36,740 nt of DNA from Octopus sinensis (taxonomy: Eukaryota): assembly GCF_006345805.1 (NCBI RefSeq), contig NW_021836881.1, positions 1 through 36,740 on the forward strand. The letters are read 5' to 3'. Positions 301 to 12,773 of the stretch are shown here, piece after piece. Below the pieces are notes generated by a model that saw nothing but the letters and a program-made list of their open reading frames with translations, had not been told where the DNA came from and searched no databases. Made by a program: the position numbers and the translations under genes. How positions within the stretch are numbered: position 1 is the stretch's first letter; each line of letters starts with the position of its first letter.

Positions 301-612
301 CATATCTTTTTTTTACTATGAATAAATTTATGTTTACAAGTTATTTTCTGAACGGAATGGAGTTTAAAAAGCAGCCTGTGTCCAGGTAAACTATGTGAAT
401 GCCATGTAAGAATCTACTAACGTGGCTGAAGTGGTTGGCATAAGGAAGGGCATCTGGCTGTAAAATAATATCTCAAAAGGGTAACCACGATGTGTATGGT
501 TACTGTCAGGGGTTAAATGATTATTGTTAAGAGCACAAAGGTTAAGCCATGATTTGACAGGGGAAACAGATTTATATATTGGGTCTTCCAATGGATTTTG
601 ACAATGATACAA

Positions 613-1224
613 TCATATTTTCCCATGGATAGCTGCATGTGTAGTTAAGTTCCTTCTTCGGAAAAATGATTTACCACAGATATCACAGTGAAACTGTCTC
701 TCGCCTGTATGAGTACGTTTGTGACTAGTCAAGGTCGAGTTGTCAGAGAATGATTTACCACAGGTAATACAGTGAAATGGCTTTTCTCCTGTATGAATAT
801 ATGTGTGTGTAGTTAATTCACTGTTTTGAGAGAATGATTTGCCACAGGTAACACAGTGATACGGTTTCTCTCCTGTATGAAAACGTTTGTGTCGATTTAA
901 GTGACTGTTTTGAGAGAATGACTTACTACAGGTATCACAGTGAAATGGCTTTTCACCTGTATGAACACGTTTGTGATTAGTTAAGGCACTGTTTTGAGAG
1001 AATGATTTACCACAGGTAACACAGTGAAATGGCTTTTCTCCTGTATGGATACGTATGTGTGTAGTTAATTCACTGTTTTGAGAGAATGATTTACCGCAGG
1101 TAACACAATGAAATGGCTTCTCACCTGTATGAACACGAATGTGATTAATTAAGTTACTGCTTGTAGAGAATGATTTACCACAGATTTCACAACTATGTTG
1201 CGATTTTCCTAATTCTTTTGACAT
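613..1224 (-). CDS. C2H2 zinc-finger protein A, 7 tandem fingers, no effector domain (203 aa from ATG 1224)
   Basis: Seven CxxC-x12-HxxxH repeats with TGEKP(F/Y) linkers. The ORF-track start at 1251 is TTG; the first in-frame ATG is 1224 ([15 protein letters not shown]). Confidence 0.9.
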
Positions 1225-1649
1225 TTCTCTAAGGGATACAAACAGACCCAACCATTGAAGTTTCTCACAGTATTAAATTTTCCCCTTATCTTTCTTCTCT
1301 CACCACAGAATGTAATTTTCTTATTCTCGTTCTTGTAATTTATTCCCCAGAAATATTTCAAATCCTATCAACCTTGATTTTATTGATATCCAAAATTCTG
1401 CAAACTTCTTTGTAAATATATTCAAGAATAATTAGAATGCAAAAGTACCAGATAAGGAGATGGAGAAATGTTGCTATGAATTGTTGCTCAGAGCAAATAT
1501 TTCACAGTAATTCAATCCCAGATTTATAGCAGTTGGGTTATTATATCTGTTCTCTAAAACGTTTTCATTTCGTCTTCAAAAAAACATGGTAAATATTCCA
1601 GATGTATCCAATGAACAAAAGATGTTTGGTGCCAATGTCATCTGTGAAT

Positions 1650-1672
1650 CTGAAATAATAAAGAAACAGTTT
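1650..1672 (-). promoter_or_regulatory. Splice acceptor upstream of ZNF A coding exon
   Basis: Minus strand reads ctgtttctttattatttcAG|attcacagatgacattgg (polypyrimidine tract plus CAG). Homologous sites precede ZNF B and ZNF C. Confidence 0.7.
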
Positions 1673-1893
1673 TAGATAGAGAGGAGAGATCAAAATGGAA
1701 GTGTTACAACATTTCTATATTGATTAACAAATGATATCAAATAACATTGGGTGGAATCTAAAAATATGTAAACTACAACTACACTTTCACACAGTGTAAC
1801 ATTACACACACATATATGTATATATATGTATATATATATCAATCAGGTCATCCCATAAGTTCTGTCTGAAATTTGAATAAAGAAAACAAGTGA

Positions 1894-3045
1894 TCAAACT
1901 GCATCTAACCAGACTCTCTCCCTAATTAGTTGGGCTATGACCCTCTCCGTGACCATCACCTGATCCAACACTTTGATACCCCTGTAGTTATTTCTATCTA
2001 AAGCATCACCTTTACCCTTGTAGCAGTTGACTAAGGGGCTGCTATGCCAGTCATTGGGTATGACTCCATCATGAACTACCTGGTTTACAAAACAGGTGAC
2101 TTGGCCATAGCTCAGACCACCAGATATTTTAAGCATCTCAGCAATGATTCCTGATGGACCGGGGGCTTTTTCTGGCTTCATACTCTTAATTGCTTTATCT
2201 ACCAGGGTGCAATCTATTCGGGTAGCTGGTCCTTTTACTGGGTCAACATTTGGCAGGCTTTCCTCCTCCCATTCATTCTCCATGTTCAGCAGTCTTTCAT
2301 AATGGCTTCTCCAAGCCTCTTTCTTTTCAGAATCATTAAAAGCAAGGGCACCATCATCCATGCAGACACATTTCTCTCCTGTAACATCACAATTTTCTCC
2401 CACACACTGTCTTGCAATCTGAAATACTTCAGTTCTTTGGTCCCCACGTCACAGGACATTGGCAACTTCCTTCTTTTCTACTTCACCCTTGGCTATGTAT
2501 ACAGGTCGCCCAGCCCCTCTTCTGGCTATCTGGTACACTCCCCCCCTACCCTCACCCTTCCAGGTTTGTTTCTTTGCTTTGATGGCTTTGCCTATCATAT
2601 TATTCCACCCCCACATTACTCTAGGTCTGGAAGGGACTTTGCACAGACTTGCTCTGTGGCACTCAGTAAACTTGCTCCATAAGGATATCCAGCAGCCTTC
2701 TATTTCTTGATGAGGAGGTCCCTAAATCTCTGACCATGTGAAGGGTTCATTAGCTTCCAAATCCTTCTTTTCTGGATTGGTCTGCTTCTGGACATCCTTC
2801 TGGCCTCAAGTCTAAAGTCACCAATGATAATGATTAGTCTATGCTGGGGGTTATATTCTTCACTCGGGAGGGTCTTTGTATTTAAGAGCAACCCTGCATC
2901 CTGCTGTCTGTTGAGGATGAAATCAATCTGGCTAGCAGAGTCCCCTGATTGGTAGGTTATAAGGTAGCTGTCTGCTTTCCTGAAGTTAGTGTTGCAGATT
3001 AAAAGGTTGCATGCATCACAGAACTCCAGAAGCCCGGTTCCCTCA
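1894..3045 (-). mobile_element. Decayed non-LTR retrotransposon (RTE-like LINE) ORF fragment: endonuclease C-terminus to start of reverse transcriptase
   Basis: The minus strand gives EGTGLLEFCDACNLLICNTNFRK...ITYQSGDSASQIDFIL...QHRLI (APE endonuclease end), then WNNMIGKAIKAKKQTWK, then KAPGPSGI...IPNDW...YKGKGDALDRNNYRGI (pre-RT/RT domain 0-1). It contains stops and frameshifts and is truncated at both ends. Confidence 0.88.
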
Positions 3046-3131
3046 CTGTATCAAGTATTGGTGGTGGGGGGCAGGAGAGGACGAGCACACCGCGAACAAA
3101 GTTTAATTTGGGAGATGGTACGAGGAACGAA

Positions 3132-3167
<36 letters not shown>
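3132..3167 (+). repeat. (AAT)n microsatellite
   Basis: About 12 perfect AAT units. Confidence 0.95.
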
Positions 3168-3168
<1 letters not shown>

Positions 3169-3469
3169 TACATTCAAAGTGTTCATGGGGGATGAGAAAT
3201 TAAACAAACCAGGGAACAAGTAATTATCTTAACGAAATTACATGAGATGAAGAGGGTATATATTGAGGTATATATCAGTTGAAATGGTTAGCTTCTGAAA
3301 ACTAGCTGTTAGTAAGTAATACATTTAAAGAGTTAATAGTGTTAATTAATGTATTAATTAATGTGTTAATGGCGAATGAATGCATGAAAGATTGAAAAAA
3401 ATGAGAGAATCTTAACTTAGCAATGCATCATCATTTGGCGACTATTTAAGTTAATTATTATATAATTTT

Positions 3470-3840
3470 GTAGCTTGCTTACCAACCACATGGTTCCGGG
3501 TTCAGTCCCACTGTGTGGCACCTTGGGCAAGTGTTTCAACTATAGCCTCGGGCCGACCAAAGCCTTGTAAGTGGATTTGGTAGACGGAAACTGAAAGAAG
3601 CCCATTGTATATGTGTATATATATGTGTGTCTGTGTTTGTCCCCCTAGCATTGCTTGACAACCAATGCTGGTGTGTTCATGTCCCCCTTACTTAGCGGTT
3701 CGGCAAAAGTGACCGATAGAATAAGTACTAGGCTTACAAAGAATAAGTCCTGGGGTCGATTTCCTCGACTAAAGGCGGTGCTCCAACATGGCCACAGTCA
3801 CATGACTGAAACAAGTAAAAGATTAAAGAGCAAAAGAGTA
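3470..3840 (+). mobile_element. tRNA-derived SINE, family 1 (5'-truncated copy)
   Basis: Colinear and highly similar to 4766-5198. B-box-like ggttcagtccc, CORE-like caccttgggcaagtg, internal (TA/TG)n, A-rich tail gtaaaaga. Confidence 0.85.
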
Positions 3841-4334
3841 AGTCAGTTATTTCTTTGTGGCCCGATAGCAAACCATTCATGAACCAGTACCAGCTGTGGC
3901 CTGGGGGTTATGGACCTCTCATATACAAGATTACATTGTCTGTCCTGTGTCCATTCATGGTTCTAGAAGATATTTTATATTTATGGTTACATAAGATACA
4001 TATTTTGAGAAGCAATTTCGACATAGTATTTGTACCCAGTTTAGAACAGAAGTGGAAACAGATAGAATCCCATCTCCCTGTCTGTTGCCAGGGGCTACAA
4101 ACAGAGAAACAGGTAAAAGAAGAAAAGAATATATTCAGCTGAATTTTATTTGTTTATCAATATTTTCTTTTTGTTTGATCAATATATGGTCACTTCACCT
4201 GCTAGAAACAACAGCTAAATTCTATGCAATTTAAACCTTCTGGTCCTGAAAACTAGAGATTACTTGCTGATTTAACGCTGGATAAAGAACGTTAGAAAAA
4301 AAACAAAAAACAGGAGAGTCATGGATGGAATATA

Positions 4335-4567
4335 TATTTCTTTATTGCCCACAGGGGGTTAAACATAGAGGGGACAAACAAAGACAGACAAACGGATTAA
4401 GTCGATTACATCGACCCCAGTGCGTAACTGGTACTTTATTTATCGACCCCGAAAGGATGAAAGGCAAAGTCGACCTCTGCGGAATTTGAACTCACAACGT
4501 AACGACAGACAAAATAGAGCTACGCATTTCGCCCGGCGTGCTAATGTTTCTGCCAGCTCGCCGCCTT
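4335..4567 (-). mobile_element. tRNA-derived SINE, family 2 (full-length-looking)
   Basis: Minus strand begins aaggcggcgagctggcagaaacattagc (A-box-like), with B-box-like gttcaaattcc and an A/T-rich tail. Partial copies at 9678-9784 and 10300-10410. Confidence 0.8.
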
Positions 4568-4765
4568 AATATAGCAACCATACCAGCATGAATGTCCATG
4601 GGACCCAAACCCTTTCTCTGCAAGTACTTGATGCCAAATTTTATCCATTTTCAAGAGATGTTGCTACTAGTTGCTTCCAGAGTCTTCTTTGAACAGTCTT
4701 TGTTCTTTGGAAAGAAATGATGCAGTTTTTAATAAGAAGTGTTGAAATTATTACATGCAAGAAAT

Positions 4766-4929
4766 GGCACAGGAGTGGCTGTGTGGTAAGAAGCTTGCTT
4801 ACCAACCACATGGTTCCGGTTCAGTCCCACTGCGTGGCACCTTGGGCAAGTGCTTTCTACTATAGCCTCGGGCCGACCAATGCCTTGTGAGTGGATTTGG
4901 TAGACGGAAACTGAAAGAAGCCTGTCGTA

Positions 4930-4979
<50 letters not shown>

Positions 4980-5198
4980 TGTGTGTGTGTTTGTGTGTCT
5001 GTGTTTGTCCCCCTATCATTGCTTGACAACCGATGCTGGTGTGTTTACGTCCCCGTCACTTAGCGGTTCGGCAAAAGAGACCGATAGAATAAGTACTGGG
5101 CTTACAAAGAATAAGTCCCAGGGTCGATTTGCTCGACTGAAGGCGGTACTCCAGCATGGCCGCATTCAAATGACTGAAACAAGTAAAAGAGTAAAGAG
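4766..5198 (+). mobile_element. tRNA-derived SINE, family 1 (full copy) with internal (TA)n at 4928-4976
   Basis: Head ggcacaggagtggctgtgtggtaag (A-box-like), ggttcagtccc (B-box-like), CORE-like segment. Second copy at 3470-3840. Confidence 0.88.
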
Positions 5199-5377
5199 AG
5201 CAAGATTTCAAAGTTCTAGCATCCCTCCTTCATAGTAAGCCTATAAACCTTTTAGACCAGCCTCATAGCCATTTCCCTGAATGATTTATCATATACATCC
5301 AGCATATTTTTGAGCTTAGCTGAGGTTCATCTTTCAGCAAATGACTCACCACAGACATCACAATGAAATGGCTTCTT

Positions 5378-6559
5378 TCAAGTGTGAATACGTTTGTGTC
5401 TAGTTAACTTCCTTCCTACAGAGAAAGACTGACCGCAGATATCACAGTGATAAGGTCTCTCTCCAGTGTGAATGTGCCTGTGTGTAATTAAGTGGTCATT
5501 TCGAGAGAATGATTGACCACAGATATCACACTGATAAGGTTTCTCTCCCGTATGAATGCGTTGGTGTTTTGTTAAGATATGACTTTGAGAGAATGATTGA
5601 CCACAGATATCACACTGATAAGGTTTCTCCCCTGTGTGAATACGTTTGTGCTTAGTTAGGGAACGTCCCTCAGCATATGACTGACCACAGACGTCACAAT
5701 GAAAAGGCTTCTCTCCAGTATGAACACGTTTGTGTCTGGTCAATGTACTCCCTTCAGAGAACGACTGACCACAGATAACGCACTGATATGGTTTCTCTCC
5801 TGTATGAATGCGTCTGTGATTAGTTAAGACAAAATTCTGAGAGAAGGATTTACCACAGATGTCACAGTCATATGGTTTTTCACCTGTATGAACGTGTTTG
5901 TGTTTACTTAAGTAATTAGGCCGAGAGAATGATTTGCCACAGGTATCACAGTGAAATGGCTTCTCACCTGTATGAATACGTTTGTGCTTAGTTAAGTGAT
6001 CGGACTGGGAGAAGGATTTACTACAGGTATCACACTGATAAGGTTTCTCACCTGTATGGATACGTTTGTGCTTAGTTAAGGTCCCTCCATCACAGAATGA
6101 CTGGCCACAGAAAACACACTGATATGGTCTCTCTCCTGTATGAATGCGTATATGTGTAGTCAAGCCATGATTTTGAGAGAATGATTTACCACAGACATCA
6201 CAGTGATATGGTCTCCCTCCTGTATGAATGCGTTTGTGAGTAGTTAAGTGGTAATTCTGAGTGAATGATTTACCACAGATATCACAGTGGTAGGGCCTCT
6301 CCCCTGTATGAATACGCTTGTGGGCAGTTAAGTGTTTATTTTGAGATAATGATTTTCCACAGATATCACAGCGATATGGTTTCTCTCCTGTATGACTACG
6401 TTTGTGAACCGTGAGGCTTTCTTTCCGAGTAAATGACTTTTTACAGATATCACAGTTGTGAGATGTTTTTCCTCTATCTTTTGGCACCTCCTCAATAAAG
6501 TCAAGACTTTCCGTCAGCATTTTACATTTCACATTGTCCTCACGCAATTCACTTTCCAT
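5378..6559 (-). CDS. C2H2 zinc-finger protein B, 13 tandem fingers, short N-terminal leader, no KRAB/SCAN/BTB (393 aa)
   Basis: ATG start and an intact 393-codon ORF with 13 CxxC-x12-HxxxH units joined by TGE(K/R)P(Y/F) linkers. Confidence 0.95.
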
Positions 6560-6840
6560 AATTTATATTTTCTCACCACAATATGCAGATGTTTACACAC
6601 TTCATTCCTATAAAATTTCTTATCTTGGTCAATATCTGCAGAAGCTGCCAGCTCTTTTGTAATCCAAGGTTAATAGGAATGCAAAATCCTCATTGAAGAA
6701 GAAATATTGCTGCAGTCGCAAGAAATATTTCACACAAAATTTACCTTCTTTCTATAAACAGGGATCTCTTTGTTCTGTGTCACAGCTTTATTTAATCTTT
6801 CAAAAATGATAAATCCATTAATCCAATGTTATCCCGTAAT

Positions 6841-6865
6841 CTGAAATAAGAGAGAAACAACAGAA
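6841..6865 (-). promoter_or_regulatory. Splice acceptor upstream of ZNF B coding exon
   Basis: Minus strand ctgttgtttctctcttatttcAG|attacgggataacattgg, homologous to the acceptors before A and C. Confidence 0.7.
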
Positions 6866-7206
6866 ATTACAGAGGATACTTGATAAAACAACAGAGACTA
6901 CACAGTGGAAGATTTTACCTGTTATATTCATGACTATGGGAAGATATTTTTTTCATCTTTCACTTGTTTGACTGTGGCCATGCTGGGGCACAGCATTGAA
7001 GGGCTTAGATACACAAACCAACACTAATACTTAGTTTTTTAAGAGACTCTATTAGTCTCTGGCAAAACTGCTAGGTCAGAAGGATGTAAACAAACCTACT
7101 CCAGTTGTGATGCAGTCATGGGGGACAAATGCAACAGAAATACTCACACACACACATATGTAATGAAAGGGACTTCCTAAATCACAAAAGCAACAGAAAT
7201 ACATAC

Positions 7207-7590
7207 ATCAACATCATTTAACCCTTTCGTTACAGTATTTATTTTGAGATGCTCTGTGTTCAATTTTAAATATAACAAAGAATTTAGTAAAATAACTTCG
7301 TTATCATTAAGCTAGTGTTAGGAATATAAATTGTGACTAAGGTTTGGTGGAAGATTTTAATTCAGAACTTATGTAAACAAGACATTTGTACTCAGAACCA
7401 GAGCCAGTTTCAGCCGGGTTGGTAACGAAAGGGTTAATGTCTGCTTTCCATACTGGCATGGGTCACACAGTTTGACCGGAGCCGATGAGCCGGAGAGCTA
7501 CACCAGGTTCCAGTGTGATTTGGCATGGTTTCTATGGCTGGATGCCCTTCCTAACACCAACCACCCCAGGGGTGTAGTGGGTGCTTTTAT
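7207..7590 (-). mobile_element. Retroposon 3' tail repeat ((GAT)n-tailed family), interrupted by the MITE
   Basis: Removing the MITE restores catcatttaatgtctgctttccatactggcatggg..., colinear with the copy at 7849-7988. Confidence 0.7.
7222..7433. mobile_element. Non-autonomous piggyBac-type MITE (212 bp) with TTAA target-site duplication
   Basis: TTAA(7218-21) CCCTTTCGTTAC ... GTAACGAAAGGG TTAA(7434-37): perfect 12-bp TIRs with CCC/GGG termini and an AT-rich non-coding interior. Confidence 0.9.
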
Positions 7591-7599
7591 ACACTACCG

Positions 7600-7845
7600 G
7601 CAAGGGTGCCGTTTACATGACACCGGCAACAACCAGGACTACGATTCAAGGCAATGACTATGATGCAAGGGTGTCGTTTACACGGCACTAGCGGCACCCA
7701 CGATGACTCATGAGTCCTATTTCCATGACTCTGGTGACCACTATGACTCACAGGTGCAATTTACATGGCATTTGCACTGACCACGATTCCCAGGTGCCAA
7801 TGTACATGGCACCATCAATGACCATGGCTATGATGCACAGCACTA
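7600..7845. repeat. Degenerate minisatellite (~4 units, 40-85 bp)
   Basis: Recurring ggtgcc/gtc..tttacatggcac..gaccac/tatgat cores at ~7601, 7666, 7751 and 7791. Confidence 0.55.
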
Positions 7846-7848
7846 GCA

Positions 7849-7988
7849 TTCATCATCATCATCGTCATCATCGTTTAACGTCCGTTCTCCATGCTAGCAC
7901 GGGTTGGACAGTTCGACCGGGGTCTGGGAAGCCAGGAGGCTGCACCAGGCTCCAGTCTGATCTGGCAGTGTTTCTACAGCTGGATGCC
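7849..7988 (-). mobile_element. Second copy of (GAT)n-tailed retroposon 3' end
   Basis: (CAT)n run followed by gtttaacgtccgttctccatgctagcacgggttggacagtt...tttctacagctggatgcc. A small opposite-orientation fragment is at ~10225-10253. Confidence 0.7.
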
Positions 7989-8124
7989 AAGAGGGGCATA
8001 AAACCTGCTTCCAGGAGATACCCCTCTTTAATGAGAGGCCCACCTCCGCCATTTACAAAGTCATCCCTCAACATCCTACTGGGGTAAAAAGAATTGAAGG
8101 CACAATGAGTTTTTGGGACCCTAC

Positions 8125-8385
8125 ACACTTAAAAAGTATACAAGAAGCCTTTTTGGTAAAAAAAAAATACACATTTTCTGACAAAAAGATTTAAGGGAGA
8201 TATGGCTGTTGTTTCTAGCATATCCTGTGACTGGTAAGGTTTCGGGTTGATAAAAAATAATTTCTTAATAGCATAAATGGGTTTATGATACTGATGGGGA
8301 GAATATATTGAAAATCATCAGAGTGAGAAAGACACGAGGAAGGTCATGAGATATGCTAGACACAGCAGCCAAATCGCCATTCAAT
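8125..8385. repeat. Two inverted copies of a short interspersed repeat (gatttggctg.t.tttctagcatatc core)
   Basis: 8188-8230 and 8342-8385 are reverse-complement related. Further copies lie at 11125-11165 and ~4198-4222. Confidence 0.6.
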
Positions 8386-8749
8386 ACGAGATCTACCGCG
8401 CACTATCTGTAGTCTATGCTGTGAAATAACCTCATCTGTTTTTCTCAATTTTCATCCTATGAATGTATTACTGGGATTAGGATTAGGGTTGGATTGAGCT
8501 TTTCCCCAGTCACACCTTCATCGTATTTGCTAGAAAGTAGTGAGAAAAGATGCTGCCGATTCGTTTGTGGGTTTCCTAAAAGAAATACGAAGCATCATCG
8601 TTAAAGGATTCAAGTGTAAATTCTGTCAGCAGTTCCGTCTGTCATTAAGAATAAATAATTATTCAATATTATTCAACTTGATTTTATAATCGTGCAGTAT
8701 AAATGGTTGTGGTGGAAGTAGACGGCACACAAAAGTGACATAGAATTAA

Positions 8750-9250
8750 TTGGCGGCCGGAAATGAGTGTAGAGCGAAATATTTCGATATTTTGGTCTTA
8801 CCTCGGTCTTAATCAGTCGTTTTTCCTCTGCCAGGTCGTGTCAGGACGTCGACGAAGAACAAGAGAAACGACAGAACCTAATTTACAACTCAAATAAACA
8901 GACATTCGCTTTCCGTTTACCATAAGAGATGGAGGAGGAAGAAACAAGGTTCGAACACGCTTCGTTTCTCTCTAAATTACAAAAAAAAAAAAAAACCACG
9001 CCTTCTTCTGCTCCAGCCACATCTTTAGGGGCCGCCTGGTGACGTCACGTCCGCTTTCCCTATCAGACAATCAATGTCCCCCGATGCGGTTTCGATTCCC
9101 GGACCGGGCGATGCGTTGTGTTTATTAAGCAAAACACTTCGGATCTTTTTAGCCCCTTGCATAGGAGAATGGAAGAAGCACCCGCGTACAAGGCGAAAGA
9201 CTACGCCCGTGTAGCCAGCAGCCTGGGAGAAGCAACTTCTGCTCAATGTT
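8750..9250. promoter_or_regulatory. CpG-enriched promoter-like region with CRE palindrome, ETS-like site and a minus-strand donor
   Basis: Visibly more CG dinucleotides than the flanks. GTGACGTCAC at 9039-9048, GGCCGGAAAT at 8755-8764, and minus-strand GAG|GTAAGA (intron would start at 8801) pointing to ZNF B/A. Confidence 0.5.
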
Positions 9251-9335
9251 CTTGCTATTTGTGAGTAAATCTAAGAAGAAAAAAAAACAGAACCAAAGCC
9301 TTAAAATTGTGATACCTGTGCAGGTGGCACGTAAA

Positions 9336-9510
9336 AAGTATTCCCGGATTACTGTAAGCCAGGTAAGAGATCCGGCACGTACGATAGATCGATAGATAGG
9401 TGTGGATATCTTACCCGTTATGCTTTACAAATCAATATTTAGCGTGAAAATATATTTACTCACATCAAAATCTCCGTGAAGACATACAAAAACACGTTAT
9501 GGTTCTTCTG
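9336..9510 (-). repeat. Left arm of inverted duplication (partner 10667-10841); contains candidate donor GAT|GTGAGT at 9463 (minus)
   Basis: Its reverse complement aligns to 10667-10841 with few mismatches, e.g. gccaggtaagagatccggcacgtacgat and gtgaaaatatatttactcacatcaaaatctccgtgaagaca. Confidence 0.9.
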
Positions 9511-9677
9511 CCGATTCCAGAGACAGCAGAGAAAGGTTCCCGCTGGATGCGATCGAAGAGGGACAAAAATCGACTTCGAAACTCTTTGAAGACAAAATTT
9601 TTGCGTCTTTAGCGCGAAGGGAAGTAACTCTGGGCATGTCTTTCTGGTGGCATTGACCTTTCACTGCCACAAGAACC

Positions 9678-9784
9678 TATTTCTTTTACTACCCCCAAGG
9701 GGCCAAACGCAGAGAGGACAAACAAGGATAGACGAACGGATTAAGTCGATTATATCGACCCAGTGCCGTAACTGGTACTTATTT
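9678..9784 (-). mobile_element. SINE family 2, 3' fragment
   Basis: Colinear with 4337-4440 (ggacaaaca..gacaaacggattaagtcgatta.atcgacc..agtg..taactggtact). Confidence 0.8.
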
Positions 9785-9838
9785 CTTTATTTCTACTTCT
9801 ATATAAATAAGTTTAACAGGGTGCCAGGGAGTCTTTCC

Positions 9839-10135
9839 GGATCTTTTCCGTTTGACCGGCAGTTTTTTAAAATAATTTCCACGAAACTAAAAACTTTTAA
9901 ACTTCGTATTCTGGTAGAATGTGTTTATAAAACATCATTTTCTCTTGGCTTTATTGAGAAAATTCTATATTTTGTAAGATATTTATTGCTGTTTTTTCTT
10001 TAATTTCTGCAATTTCAACCAATCAATGACCTCTATTGAGGTGAAAACATCCTGTGCCGTATGAATATGTCCCTCGTTTAAGAAACAGATTGGGTTTATT
10101 TACATTTGTGAAGAAAAAAAGATACCCTTCCCCCG
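9839..10135. repeat. Probable truncated interspersed repeat (non-autonomous DNA-transposon-like)
   Basis: Starts ggatcttttccgtttgaccggcagtttttt, which I recall as a terminal motif of an abundant octopus repeat. No partner end is present in the window, so this is unverified. Confidence 0.35.
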
Positions 10136-10299
10136 GGTCGTCTAAAACCTTGTCACTAGACTCGCATGATGGAATCTTTGTAGAAGCCTTTTTGTGTATG
10201 GTGCAGCCTTCCAGCTCGCCATTCCTCTTCAAACCGTCGAACCCATGCCAGCAGTAGGGTTAGGGTTAAATTATGATATTTATATATTGGAAATATTTC

Positions 10300-10410
10300 A
10301 GTGGTATTTACTTCATTGACCACCAAAAACGAATTTGAACTCAACGTAAAACGGTCAAAATACCGCCAAGGATTTCGTCCAACGAGCAAACGGTTCTGTC
10401 AGCTCGCCAA
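10300..10410 (-). mobile_element. SINE family 2, degenerate 5' fragment
   Basis: gaatttgaactc..aacgtaa...atttcg.cc....ctg.cagctcgcc matches 4482-4562. Confidence 0.65.
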
Positions 10411-10666
10411 CTGAAGTAACCTTAATCACCATGAAGTATAAACTATGTCTTTTTCAACATTACCAGCAAGGCCGCTGCTGACAATAATGAAGATTCGTTT
10501 ATCATAGCGAGATGCTAACCACAGTAACCATGGTGATTGGCATCAAACTATTGCAAGTTCCCGCTTTATGATAACATTCTTGGTTTTATTCATTAGAGAG
10601 CGTTGGGTTTATTGTTGTCACATGACACACCGTACTTCCGTTTCTTCTGCAACCTGCTTCAATGGA

Positions 10667-10841
10667 CAGAAGAACAGAAAAGGGTTTTTCGTTGTCTTCA
10701 CGGAGATTTTGATGTGAGTAAATATATTTTCACTCTAAATATTGATTTGTGTAGCATAACAAGTAAGATATACACACCTATCTATCGATCGATCGTACGT
10801 GCCGGATCTCTTACCTGGCTTCCAGAAATCCGGCAATACTT
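10667..10841 (+). repeat. Right arm of inverted duplication; contains candidate donor GAT|GTGAGT at 10714 (plus), candidate first exon of ZNF C ~10635-10713
   Basis: Inverted match to 9336-9510, preceded by ACTTCCG (ETS-like) at 10634-10640. The donor faces the acceptor at 11324. Confidence 0.85.
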
Positions 10842-10927
10842 ATACCGTGTATTGAGTATTCGGTTCCGCCCTTCCCGTCTCGGAATTTCTCCGTCGTGGC
10901 AGGGAGTTTTCCGATATTTTTTTCTTT

Positions 10928-10929
<2 letters not shown>

Positions 10930-10964
<35 letters not shown>
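10930..10964 (+). repeat. (ATT)n microsatellite
   Basis: About 11 perfect ATT units. Confidence 0.95.
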
Positions 10965-10965
<1 letters not shown>

Positions 10966-11302
10966 TTTTTCGTTTCTTACACACAGTCCTATTCCACCAG
11001 TTTTCCCCTTTTCCTAACCAATTTCGGTCCATTTTCTGGGCATGATGCACTTGGAAAAAAGTAGGAGAAACCTTTTTGGTAAAAAAAGAATTAAAAGTAG
11101 ATATTTTCAGAAGTAAAGGTGTGTGATTTAATGGTGATTTGGCTGTTATGTCTAGCATATCCCATAACCACATTCCCCGATTCTTTCTCACTCAGGCAAG
11201 TTTACAGATTTTTAGATTCCACCCAATGTTATTTGATGTCATTTGTTAATCAATGTAGAAATGTTGTAACACTTCCAATTTGATCTCTCCTCTCTATCTA
11301 AA

Positions 11303-11324
11303 TACTGTTTCTTTATTATTTCAG
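11303..11324 (+). promoter_or_regulatory. Splice acceptor upstream of ZNF C coding exon
   Basis: actgtttctttattatttcAG|attcacagatgacattggc, essentially identical to the acceptor before ZNF A. Confidence 0.7.
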
Positions 11325-11742
11325 ATTCACAGATGACATTGGCACAAAACGACTTTTGTACATTGGATACATCTGGAATATTTACCATGTTTTCTTGAAG
11401 ACGAAATGAAAACGTTTTAGAGAACAGATATAATAACCCAACTGCTATAAATCCAAGATTGAATTACTGTGAAATATTTGCCCTGAGCAACAATTCATAG
11501 CAACATTTCTCCATCTCCTTACCTGGTGCTTTTGCATTCTAATTAAACTTGAATATATTTACAAAGGAGTTTGCAGCCTCTTTAGATATCAATAAAAGAG
11601 CAGTGGAAATACTTCTAAGAAATAAACTATAACAAGAAGAAGAAGAAGGAAATTACATGCTGAGGTGAGAGAAGAAAGATAAGGGGAAAATTTAATACTG
11701 TGAGAAACTTTAACGGTTGGGTCTATTTTGTCTCTTGGAGAA

Positions 11743-12595
<853 letters not shown>

Positions 12596-12773
12596 GACAA
12601 GGAAATCTTGTTCCTTACACTATCAACAAGAAGCACAAGTTTGCGGATAAACCATTTCTCGAATCTAGGAAGTGTTTCATGAAAAAGTATCAAACTAGGG
12701 GCCTTACCCAGGAAGAGAAGCTGGATATTCTGTGTGTAGAAGTGAAATTTTATCATAGATATGTGGTGCTGCA

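What the first reader, a model, noticed from the sequence alone, without database searches (positions are those of the whole stretch)
1650..9625. Possible cassette system: shared non-coding first exon(s) spliced to alternative whole zinc-finger-array exons
Seen: each ZNF array is a single exon behind a homologous acceptor (tttcAG|att..acattgg at 1650, 6841, 11324). No promoter-like CpG-rich stretch is evident between B and A, which is mostly transposon debris. Candidate minus-strand donors are at 9463 (GAT|GTGAGT, mirror of the one facing ZNF C) and 8801 (GAG|GTAAGA), both upstream of B. Inference: A may be reached only by splicing over B, so one promoter region could choose between a 13-finger and a 7-finger protein by alternative terminal exon use. 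That is a constant-5'/variable-3' design, the reverse of vertebrate clustered protocadherins.
Basis: inference. Interest (0 to 1): 0.75.

Follow-up and report, generated by a model that had tools for sequence, protein, structure and literature searches.

The report
Zinc-finger gene captures neighbour's first exon
In a zinc-finger gene cluster, likely from an octopus, assembled transcripts join two different non-coding first exons to the same 13-finger gene, one of them likely captured from the 7-finger gene behind it, which shows no promoter of its own and was not seen spliced to either exon.

Summary
The anatomy is real. There are three single-exon C2H2 arrays behind related acceptors, donors at 9464 and 8802, and no CpG-rich promoter between B and A. 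Both donors are used, but 4 of 4 junction contigs (3 of 4 runs) splice to B and none to A. Both first exons are non-coding, so both messages give the same 393-aa protein. B is a complete gene with its own conserved promoter and first exon (8802). The 9464 exon ends in a 189-bp scrap of the A/C-family first exon, behind a dispersed repeat. A is a promoterless recombinant exon; its relatives mostly keep their own first exon. Best reading: B became interposed between an A-type first exon and A, traps that exon and orphans A. What is shown is two 5' ends on one 3' exon, not a 13-versus-7-finger switch. Rare skipping to A is not excluded, because contigs drop rare forms. Two other B-type promoters in this genome each precede two tandem terminal exons and are better untested cassette candidates. 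The design itself is known (lola, CPNE1/RBM12). The scan noted shared octopus first exons and a lola-like array before, on other DNA.

The parts
613..1649 (-). ZNF A terminal exon (acceptor 1650; ATG 1224; 203 aa, 7 fingers; 3' end not mapped). Promoterless; a recombinant of paralogous copies
   Evidence: 97-100% to C10354 gene over 1-1300 but 84-88% in most bins of 1400-1800
1650..1840 (-). 3' end of an A/C-family first intron, ending at a (CA/TA) microsatellite
   Evidence: 88-96% to paralog introns
1840..3470 (.). Dispersed repeats where an A-type promoter and first exon would be: a LINE-like fragment (label recalled; no Pfam hit) and an AT-rich repeat
   Evidence: high contig depth; Pfam 0 families; 58 matches on many contigs; CpG o/e 0.05-0.16 at 1600-3000
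3845..4330 (-). Cluster-specific 3' flank element that elsewhere lies downstream of A-type genes; AATAAA at 4150
5173..6840 (-). ZNF B terminal exon (acceptor 6841; ATG 6559; stop 5378; 393 aa, 13 fingers); 3' UTR covered by contigs to at least 5173
   Evidence: 96-99% paralogs on C30
8802..9041 (-). B's own non-coding first exon (donor GAG|GTAAGA; 5' end not mapped, at or beyond 9041), spliced to B
   Evidence: X18 and X4 loose ends; homologous exons before B-type genes at C30:12666472 and C30:6130072
9036..9074 (-). Conserved B-type promoter motif with TGACGTCA (CRE-like, label recalled) and a CCAAT-like box
   Evidence: 89% over 36 nt to C30:12666387 and 81% to C30:6129834; the 8-mer alone is not above chance (24 of 100 shuffles)
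9328..9463 (-). 5' 136 nt of an A/C-family first intron
   Evidence: 88-93% to paralogs
9464..9733 (-). Captured non-coding exon: 53 nt of A/C-family first exon (9464-9516) behind an old dispersed repeat (9518-9670) and a SINE-like piece; spliced to B; 5' end not mapped
   Evidence: X1 and X18; repeat nature
10522..10713 (+). ZNF C first exon, family-type donor; C's own junction not shown (the contig ending at 10713 is a 93% paralog)
   Evidence: record 23
11325..12590 (+). ZNF C terminal exon (ATG 11743); one-base gap at 12397 relative to two other copies, likely a sequencing error

Best explanation
Gene B is a complete zinc-finger gene whose terminal exon receives two non-coding first exons, its own (8802) and an A/C-family one (9464) that it likely captured when a rearrangement placed B between that exon and A, likely leaving A an orphan exon. 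Shown: both junctions to B, the same protein from both, B's promoter and first exon conserved before other B-type genes, the 9464 exon's family origin, A's lack of a promoter-like stretch, and A's mosaic make-up. Inferred: the spliceosome takes the first family-type acceptor it meets (B's) and transcripts end at B's poly(A) signals (candidates 4733-4150), so A is seldom or never reached. Also inferred: the layout arose by unequal recombination in a tandem cluster. Whether B was inserted into A's intron, or replaced a neighbouring A-type exon while A lost its promoter separately, is not settled.
For:: loose ends at 9464 (X1, X18) and 8802 (X4, X18) are all B-type. Three match B-type acceptors directly with 0 mismatches and differ from A at 12 of 30, 13 of 30 and 9 of 23 letters; the X4 one carries 2 extra letters. 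X18's 9464 junction has window alleles on both sides (9616G, 6817A), X1's has C10205 alleles on both sides, as cis-splicing predicts. The 9464 contigs run unbranched 30 letters into B. Family norm: 13 of 22 A/C-family acceptors listed have a cognate donor within 4.6 kb with no acceptor between. The gene in A's slot in C10205 shares a premature stop with C10354:38243, which has its own first exon 1.1 kb upstream and no B. A's intact ORF lies in the part 97-100% identical to C10354:32885, which has its own first exon (4 of 203 residues differ), so it needs no selection on A. At window 1347-1365 all laid depth in X1, X3 and X14 carries that paralog's letters, none A's.
Against: Only contigs were available (5 of 24 listed runs laid). 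Contigs drop rare forms, and the runs are only guessed to be RNA (X18's kind is unknown). A's acceptor is intact. 9 of 22 acceptors have no cognate donor close by, so orphan-looking exons are not rare. An A-type 3' flank element behind B does not fit a simple insertion of B. The donor-fragment tree does not resolve which gene the 9464 scrap came from.
Confidence: 0.68

Rival explanations
1. One reading: the shared first exons also splice over B to A in some tissues, giving a regulated choice of a 13- or 7-finger protein.
For: A has an intact acceptor and ORF and no promoter. The 9464 exon belongs to A's own family. The B subfamily shows one promoter before two tandem terminal exons at two more loci. 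Contigs 99% like A's 3' part exist in X1, X3 and X14.
Against: 0 of 4 junction contigs reach A. The A-like 3' contigs cannot be told from the C10354 paralog that has its own first exon, and the 5' letters seen are that paralog's. The counterpart in C10205 carries a premature stop.
Confidence: 0.17
2. A is expressed from its own cryptic, repeat-derived start between 1.8 and 5.3 kb, independent of B's exons.
For: The interval is full of transcribed repeats and holds donor-like sites. Seven C30 paralogs without a cognate donor have a CpG-rich stretch upstream.
Against: All 8 donor-like sites listed between 1650 and 5173 lie in masked repeats, and unmasked CpG o/e is 0.32. No contig with A's own 5' letters was seen (weak).
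Confidence: 0.08
3. The 9464 exon is only divergent antisense transcription from C's promoter that happens to splice into B, with no history as A's first exon.
For: Only 53 nt of family exon survive; the rest is repeat-derived. Short copies of this donor/intron piece are scattered through the cluster, one of them inverted. The start site is unmapped.
Against: The fragment is closer to C10205:30436 (93%) than to C (88%), and the slot gene's acceptor is closest to that same gene's (93%). It lies in the right orientation and order for A's lost intron start. This rival changes the history, not the present splicing.
Confidence: 0.07

Closest known systems
Promoter and 5' exon sharing gene pairs such as CPNE1/RBM12 (PMC2568002; abstract, outline and 12 passages seen)
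   Same: Non-coding 5' exons upstream of two same-strand coding units; the outcome is set by poly(A) recognition of the nearer gene versus read-through.
   Different: There both genes are shown to use the shared exons, have unrelated coding sequences and are conserved from fish to human. Here only the nearer gene is shown, the partners are paralogs and the layout is recent.
Drosophila lola (PMC1947980; 12 passages seen)
   Different: lola's common region encodes a BTB domain and about 20 isoforms are demonstrated. Here the 5' exons are non-coding and only one terminal exon is shown in use.
Vertebrate clustered protocadherins (described in PMC9068888; 7 passages seen)
   Same: What is shown here, several first exons on one final exon, has the same direction.
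   Different: Protocadherin first exons encode the variable protein. Here they alter only the 5' UTR. The paper says cephalopod protocadherins diversify by whole-gene duplication.
Coleoid C2H2 zinc-finger expansions (PMC9068888 passages; PMC12513265 abstract, outline and 12 passages; PMC10547256 12 passages)
   Same: Clustered tandem C2H2 arrays in a 2.7-Gb genome. The octopus label rests on earlier scan notes and recall, not on a taxonomy test.
   Different: PMC12513265's main text has 0 hits for 'exon', 'splic' and 'promoter'; exon capture between subfamilies is not treated in the passages seen.

Membership tests
lola-type alternative terminal exon locus | Common 5' exon spliced to two or more zinc-finger terminal exons | tested here: inconclusive
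   4 of 4 junction contigs go to B, 0 to A; contigs cannot prove absence
lola-type alternative terminal exon locus | Common region encodes a shared (BTB) protein domain | tested here: not met
   The longest ORF starts 282 nt inside B and 426 nt inside A; the first exons hold only short upstream ORFs
lola-type alternative terminal exon locus | Downstream cassettes lack their own promoter | tested here: met
   CpG o/e 0.32 and no cognate donor between A and B; start sites not mapped
Promoter-sharing gene pair (CPNE1/RBM12 type) | Both coding units are found joined to the same first exon | tested here: inconclusive
   Only B found
Promoter-sharing gene pair (CPNE1/RBM12 type) | Arrangement conserved across species | not testable with these tools
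   No relative genomes held. Within G000 the slot gene has its own first exon in C10354
Gene with alternative first exons | Two distinct 5' exons each splice by GT-AG to one acceptor | tested here: met
   9464->6840 in X1 and X18; 8802->6840 in X18 and, with 2 extra letters, X4
Gene with alternative first exons | Each exon has its own transcription start | not testable with these tools
   Contigs cannot show starts; a conserved promoter motif precedes the 8802 exon
Clustered protocadherin design | Variable first exons encode different proteins | tested here: not met
   Same 393-aa ORF from either exon
Tandem C2H2 zinc-finger proteins | Tandem zf-C2H2 (PF00096) repeats | tested here: met
   A, B and C, E from 1e-41 to 3e-67

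The most novel reading that the evidence does not exclude
Because the whole ORF sits in one terminal exon behind interchangeable acceptors, this subfamily repeatedly builds domain-free lola-like cassettes: one promoter and non-coding first exon choose between whole, different zinc-finger proteins. It would have happened three times (window B/A; C30:6135146/6138791 with 11 and 9 fingers; C30:12668429/12670847), giving new DNA-binding proteins expression without a promoter of their own.
Probability: 0.27. Interest if true: 0.55.

Novelty: new member of a known kind. Interest (0 to 1): 0.3.

Why it matters
As shown, it is a small, well-resolved case of how a fast-evolving zinc-finger cluster rewires regulation. 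A paralog placed behind a neighbour's first exon acts like a natural gene trap: it gains a second 5' end and strands the neighbour. It also warns that intact single-exon zinc-finger ORFs in such clusters may be promoterless, so gene counts can be too high. If the tandem exons on C30 are both spliced to one first exon, cephalopod zinc-finger diversity would be partly made by terminal-exon choice, and two named loci make that directly testable.

Tried and rejected
(1) The first read-laying on 400-12700 was swamped by repeats: none of the 15 joints shown was a donor-acceptor joint and 889 were not shown. The second laying used the unique donor region and read the partner from loose ends. (2) No RNA holder was listed as on record; the kinds are guesses. 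(3) dN/dS of 0.21 between the two C30:6.13 Mb exons looked like selection on the promoterless copy. I rejected it: the non-coding flank differs by only 2.4%, so the array differences likely come from finger exchange, and a neutral copy stays stop-free about half the time at that divergence. (4) Exact protein look-up found 0 of 4; the homolog search gave only generic zinc-finger proteins at 36-58% identity. (5) Trees of donor fragments and acceptor regions gave weak pairing only. (6) CpG-island calls are unspecific here, 59 in 300 kb of C30. (7) A processed retrocopy as source of the junctions: the exon 9500-9680 has only 4 near-identical copies, all in this block. (8) The + strand donor-like site at 9260 had no cover in 4 runs; this is no evidence. 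(9) X14's 82-letter exon upstream of a B-type acceptor was not identified. (10) Paper searches for this arrangement found no direct report (two returned 0 papers). No supplements were read.
Full report
Setting. The window is a whole 36.7-kb contig of a 2.7-Gb genome (G000:C13352). Bases 12774-36740 are a 167-bp satellite. The first 12.7 kb hold three C2H2 arrays: A (7 fingers, -), B (13, -) and C (+). That the animal is an octopus comes from earlier scan notes and recall; I did not test it.

Observation. The 9464 donor belongs to the A/C family. The 8802 donor belongs to the B family: its exon and a promoter motif recur before B-type exons at C30:12666387-12666654 and C30:6129834-6130124. So B is a complete gene lying between an A-type first-exon end and the A-type terminal exon.

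Transcript evidence. 24 runs were listed, none on record as RNA; I laid 5 of them as contigs. On 400-12700, contigs ended exactly at 9464 (X1), 8802 (X4), 6841 (X14) and 10713 (X3, a 93% paralog) with unlaid tails. On 8620-9650 the tails could be read. At 9464, X1 and X18 continue into B-type letters. At 8802, X18 does, and X4 does with two extra letters. X14 showed no junction. These tails match B-type acceptors and not A or C. X18's 9464 junction carries the window's own alleles on both sides; X1's and X4's carry those of the C10205 copy. No tail led to A. X18 also has an unspliced contig across the 8802 donor (8620-8831).

Coding effect. Either first exon gives the same 393-aa ORF, which starts 282 nt inside B. 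The choice changes only the 5' leader and its short upstream ORFs. The 9464 exon is itself a chimera: 53 nt of family exon behind an old dispersed repeat. Its start is unmapped and could belong to C's divergent promoter.

Status of A. In the fetched stretches (redundant contigs C11944, C12777 and C12650 left out) I listed 22 A/C-family acceptors. 13 have a cognate donor within 4.6 kb with no acceptor between; 9 do not, among them A and its counterpart C10205:36144. The other 7 have a CpG-rich stretch upstream, a weak sign given 59 such calls in 300 kb. The C10205 counterpart ends in a premature stop shared with C10354:38243, and that copy has its first exon 1.1 kb away and no B. Window A is a mosaic. 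Bases 1-1300 are 97-100% identical to C10354:32885, a gene with its own first exon. Most of 1800-4800 is 97-99% identical to C10205, and 1350-1740 matches neither well. A's intact ORF is therefore inherited from a recent exchange and is no sign of use. A-like 3' contigs exist, but at 1347-1365 all laid depth in X1, X3 and X14 has the paralog's letters. This is weak, since those animals may lack the window's A.

Mechanism. Most likely (0.68) B works as a natural exon trap. Transcripts from the 9464 exon meet B's family-type acceptor first and end at B's poly(A) signals, and A is stranded. The junctions and the family origins are shown. The poly(A) site, the starts and the history are inferred. 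An A-type 3' flank element behind B means B may have replaced a neighbouring A-type exon rather than entered A's intron. The donor and acceptor trees lean weakly to the second.

A's acceptor is intact, so rare skipping is possible (0.17). More telling, both other B-type promoters found precede two tandem terminal exons with no CpG island between them. One pair is C30:6135146 and 6138791 (11 and 9 fingers, both ORFs open, 89% identical); the other is C30:12668429 and 12670847. A selection test on the first pair was uninformative, and no read-laying was left for them. They are the places to test the cassette model.

Comparison. Common 5' exons joined to alternative zinc-finger ends are known from lola, and shared non-coding first exons from CPNE1/RBM12 and over 20 other human pairs. 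What is shown is a gene with alternative first exons, one captured from a sister subfamily. Six searches found no report of this in cephalopods. Earlier scan notes describe a family-wide first exon and recombining clusters in this genome and a lola-like array in another genome; they are unreviewed and do not count as support.

Verdict. Observation confirmed; interpretation partly supported; interest 0.3.

Noticed in passing
G000:C30:6129800-6140000 (L080, L081) and C30:12666400-12672400 (L072, L073): Each has one B-type promoter and first exon followed by two tandem same-strand terminal exons with intact acceptors and no CpG island between; best candidates for true alternative terminal exons.
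   Followed up: partly
window 12774-36740; C10205:51068; C12777:16923; C30:12772402-12775904 and 12799607-12800609: The 167-bp satellite grows out of the 3' flank of A/C-family genes. At such sites it has 1, 5, 21, 6 and about 144 copies, at 97-99% identity.
   Followed up: partly
G000:C30:12678710-12680470: A third B-type terminal exon sits behind a diverged A/C-type first exon whose usual donor is mutated and whose second donor, about 50 nt further on, is intact; a second subfamily chimera.
   Followed up: partly
G000:C30:12804773: An A-type terminal exon whose upstream region has three tandem intron fragments without a donor; the nearest cognate donor lies 9.6 kb away, across another gene's acceptor.
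   Followed up: no
window 8802->6840, run X4: The junction carries two extra letters (AG) between the exons; allele, assembly error or shifted acceptor not resolved.
   Followed up: partly
window 9260 (+): Donor-like TTT|GTGAGTAAAT in a stretch unique to this block, facing C; could give C a second first exon; no contig cover in 4 runs.
   Followed up: partly
window 12397: A one-base gap that shifts C's frame is absent from C10205 and C12777, likely a sequencing error; C10205 has 9 fingers in frame.
   Followed up: yes
G000:C11944, C12777, C12650: Near-identical redundant contigs of the same blocks (C12650 mirrors C30 coordinates); gene counts in this assembly are likely inflated.
   Followed up: partly
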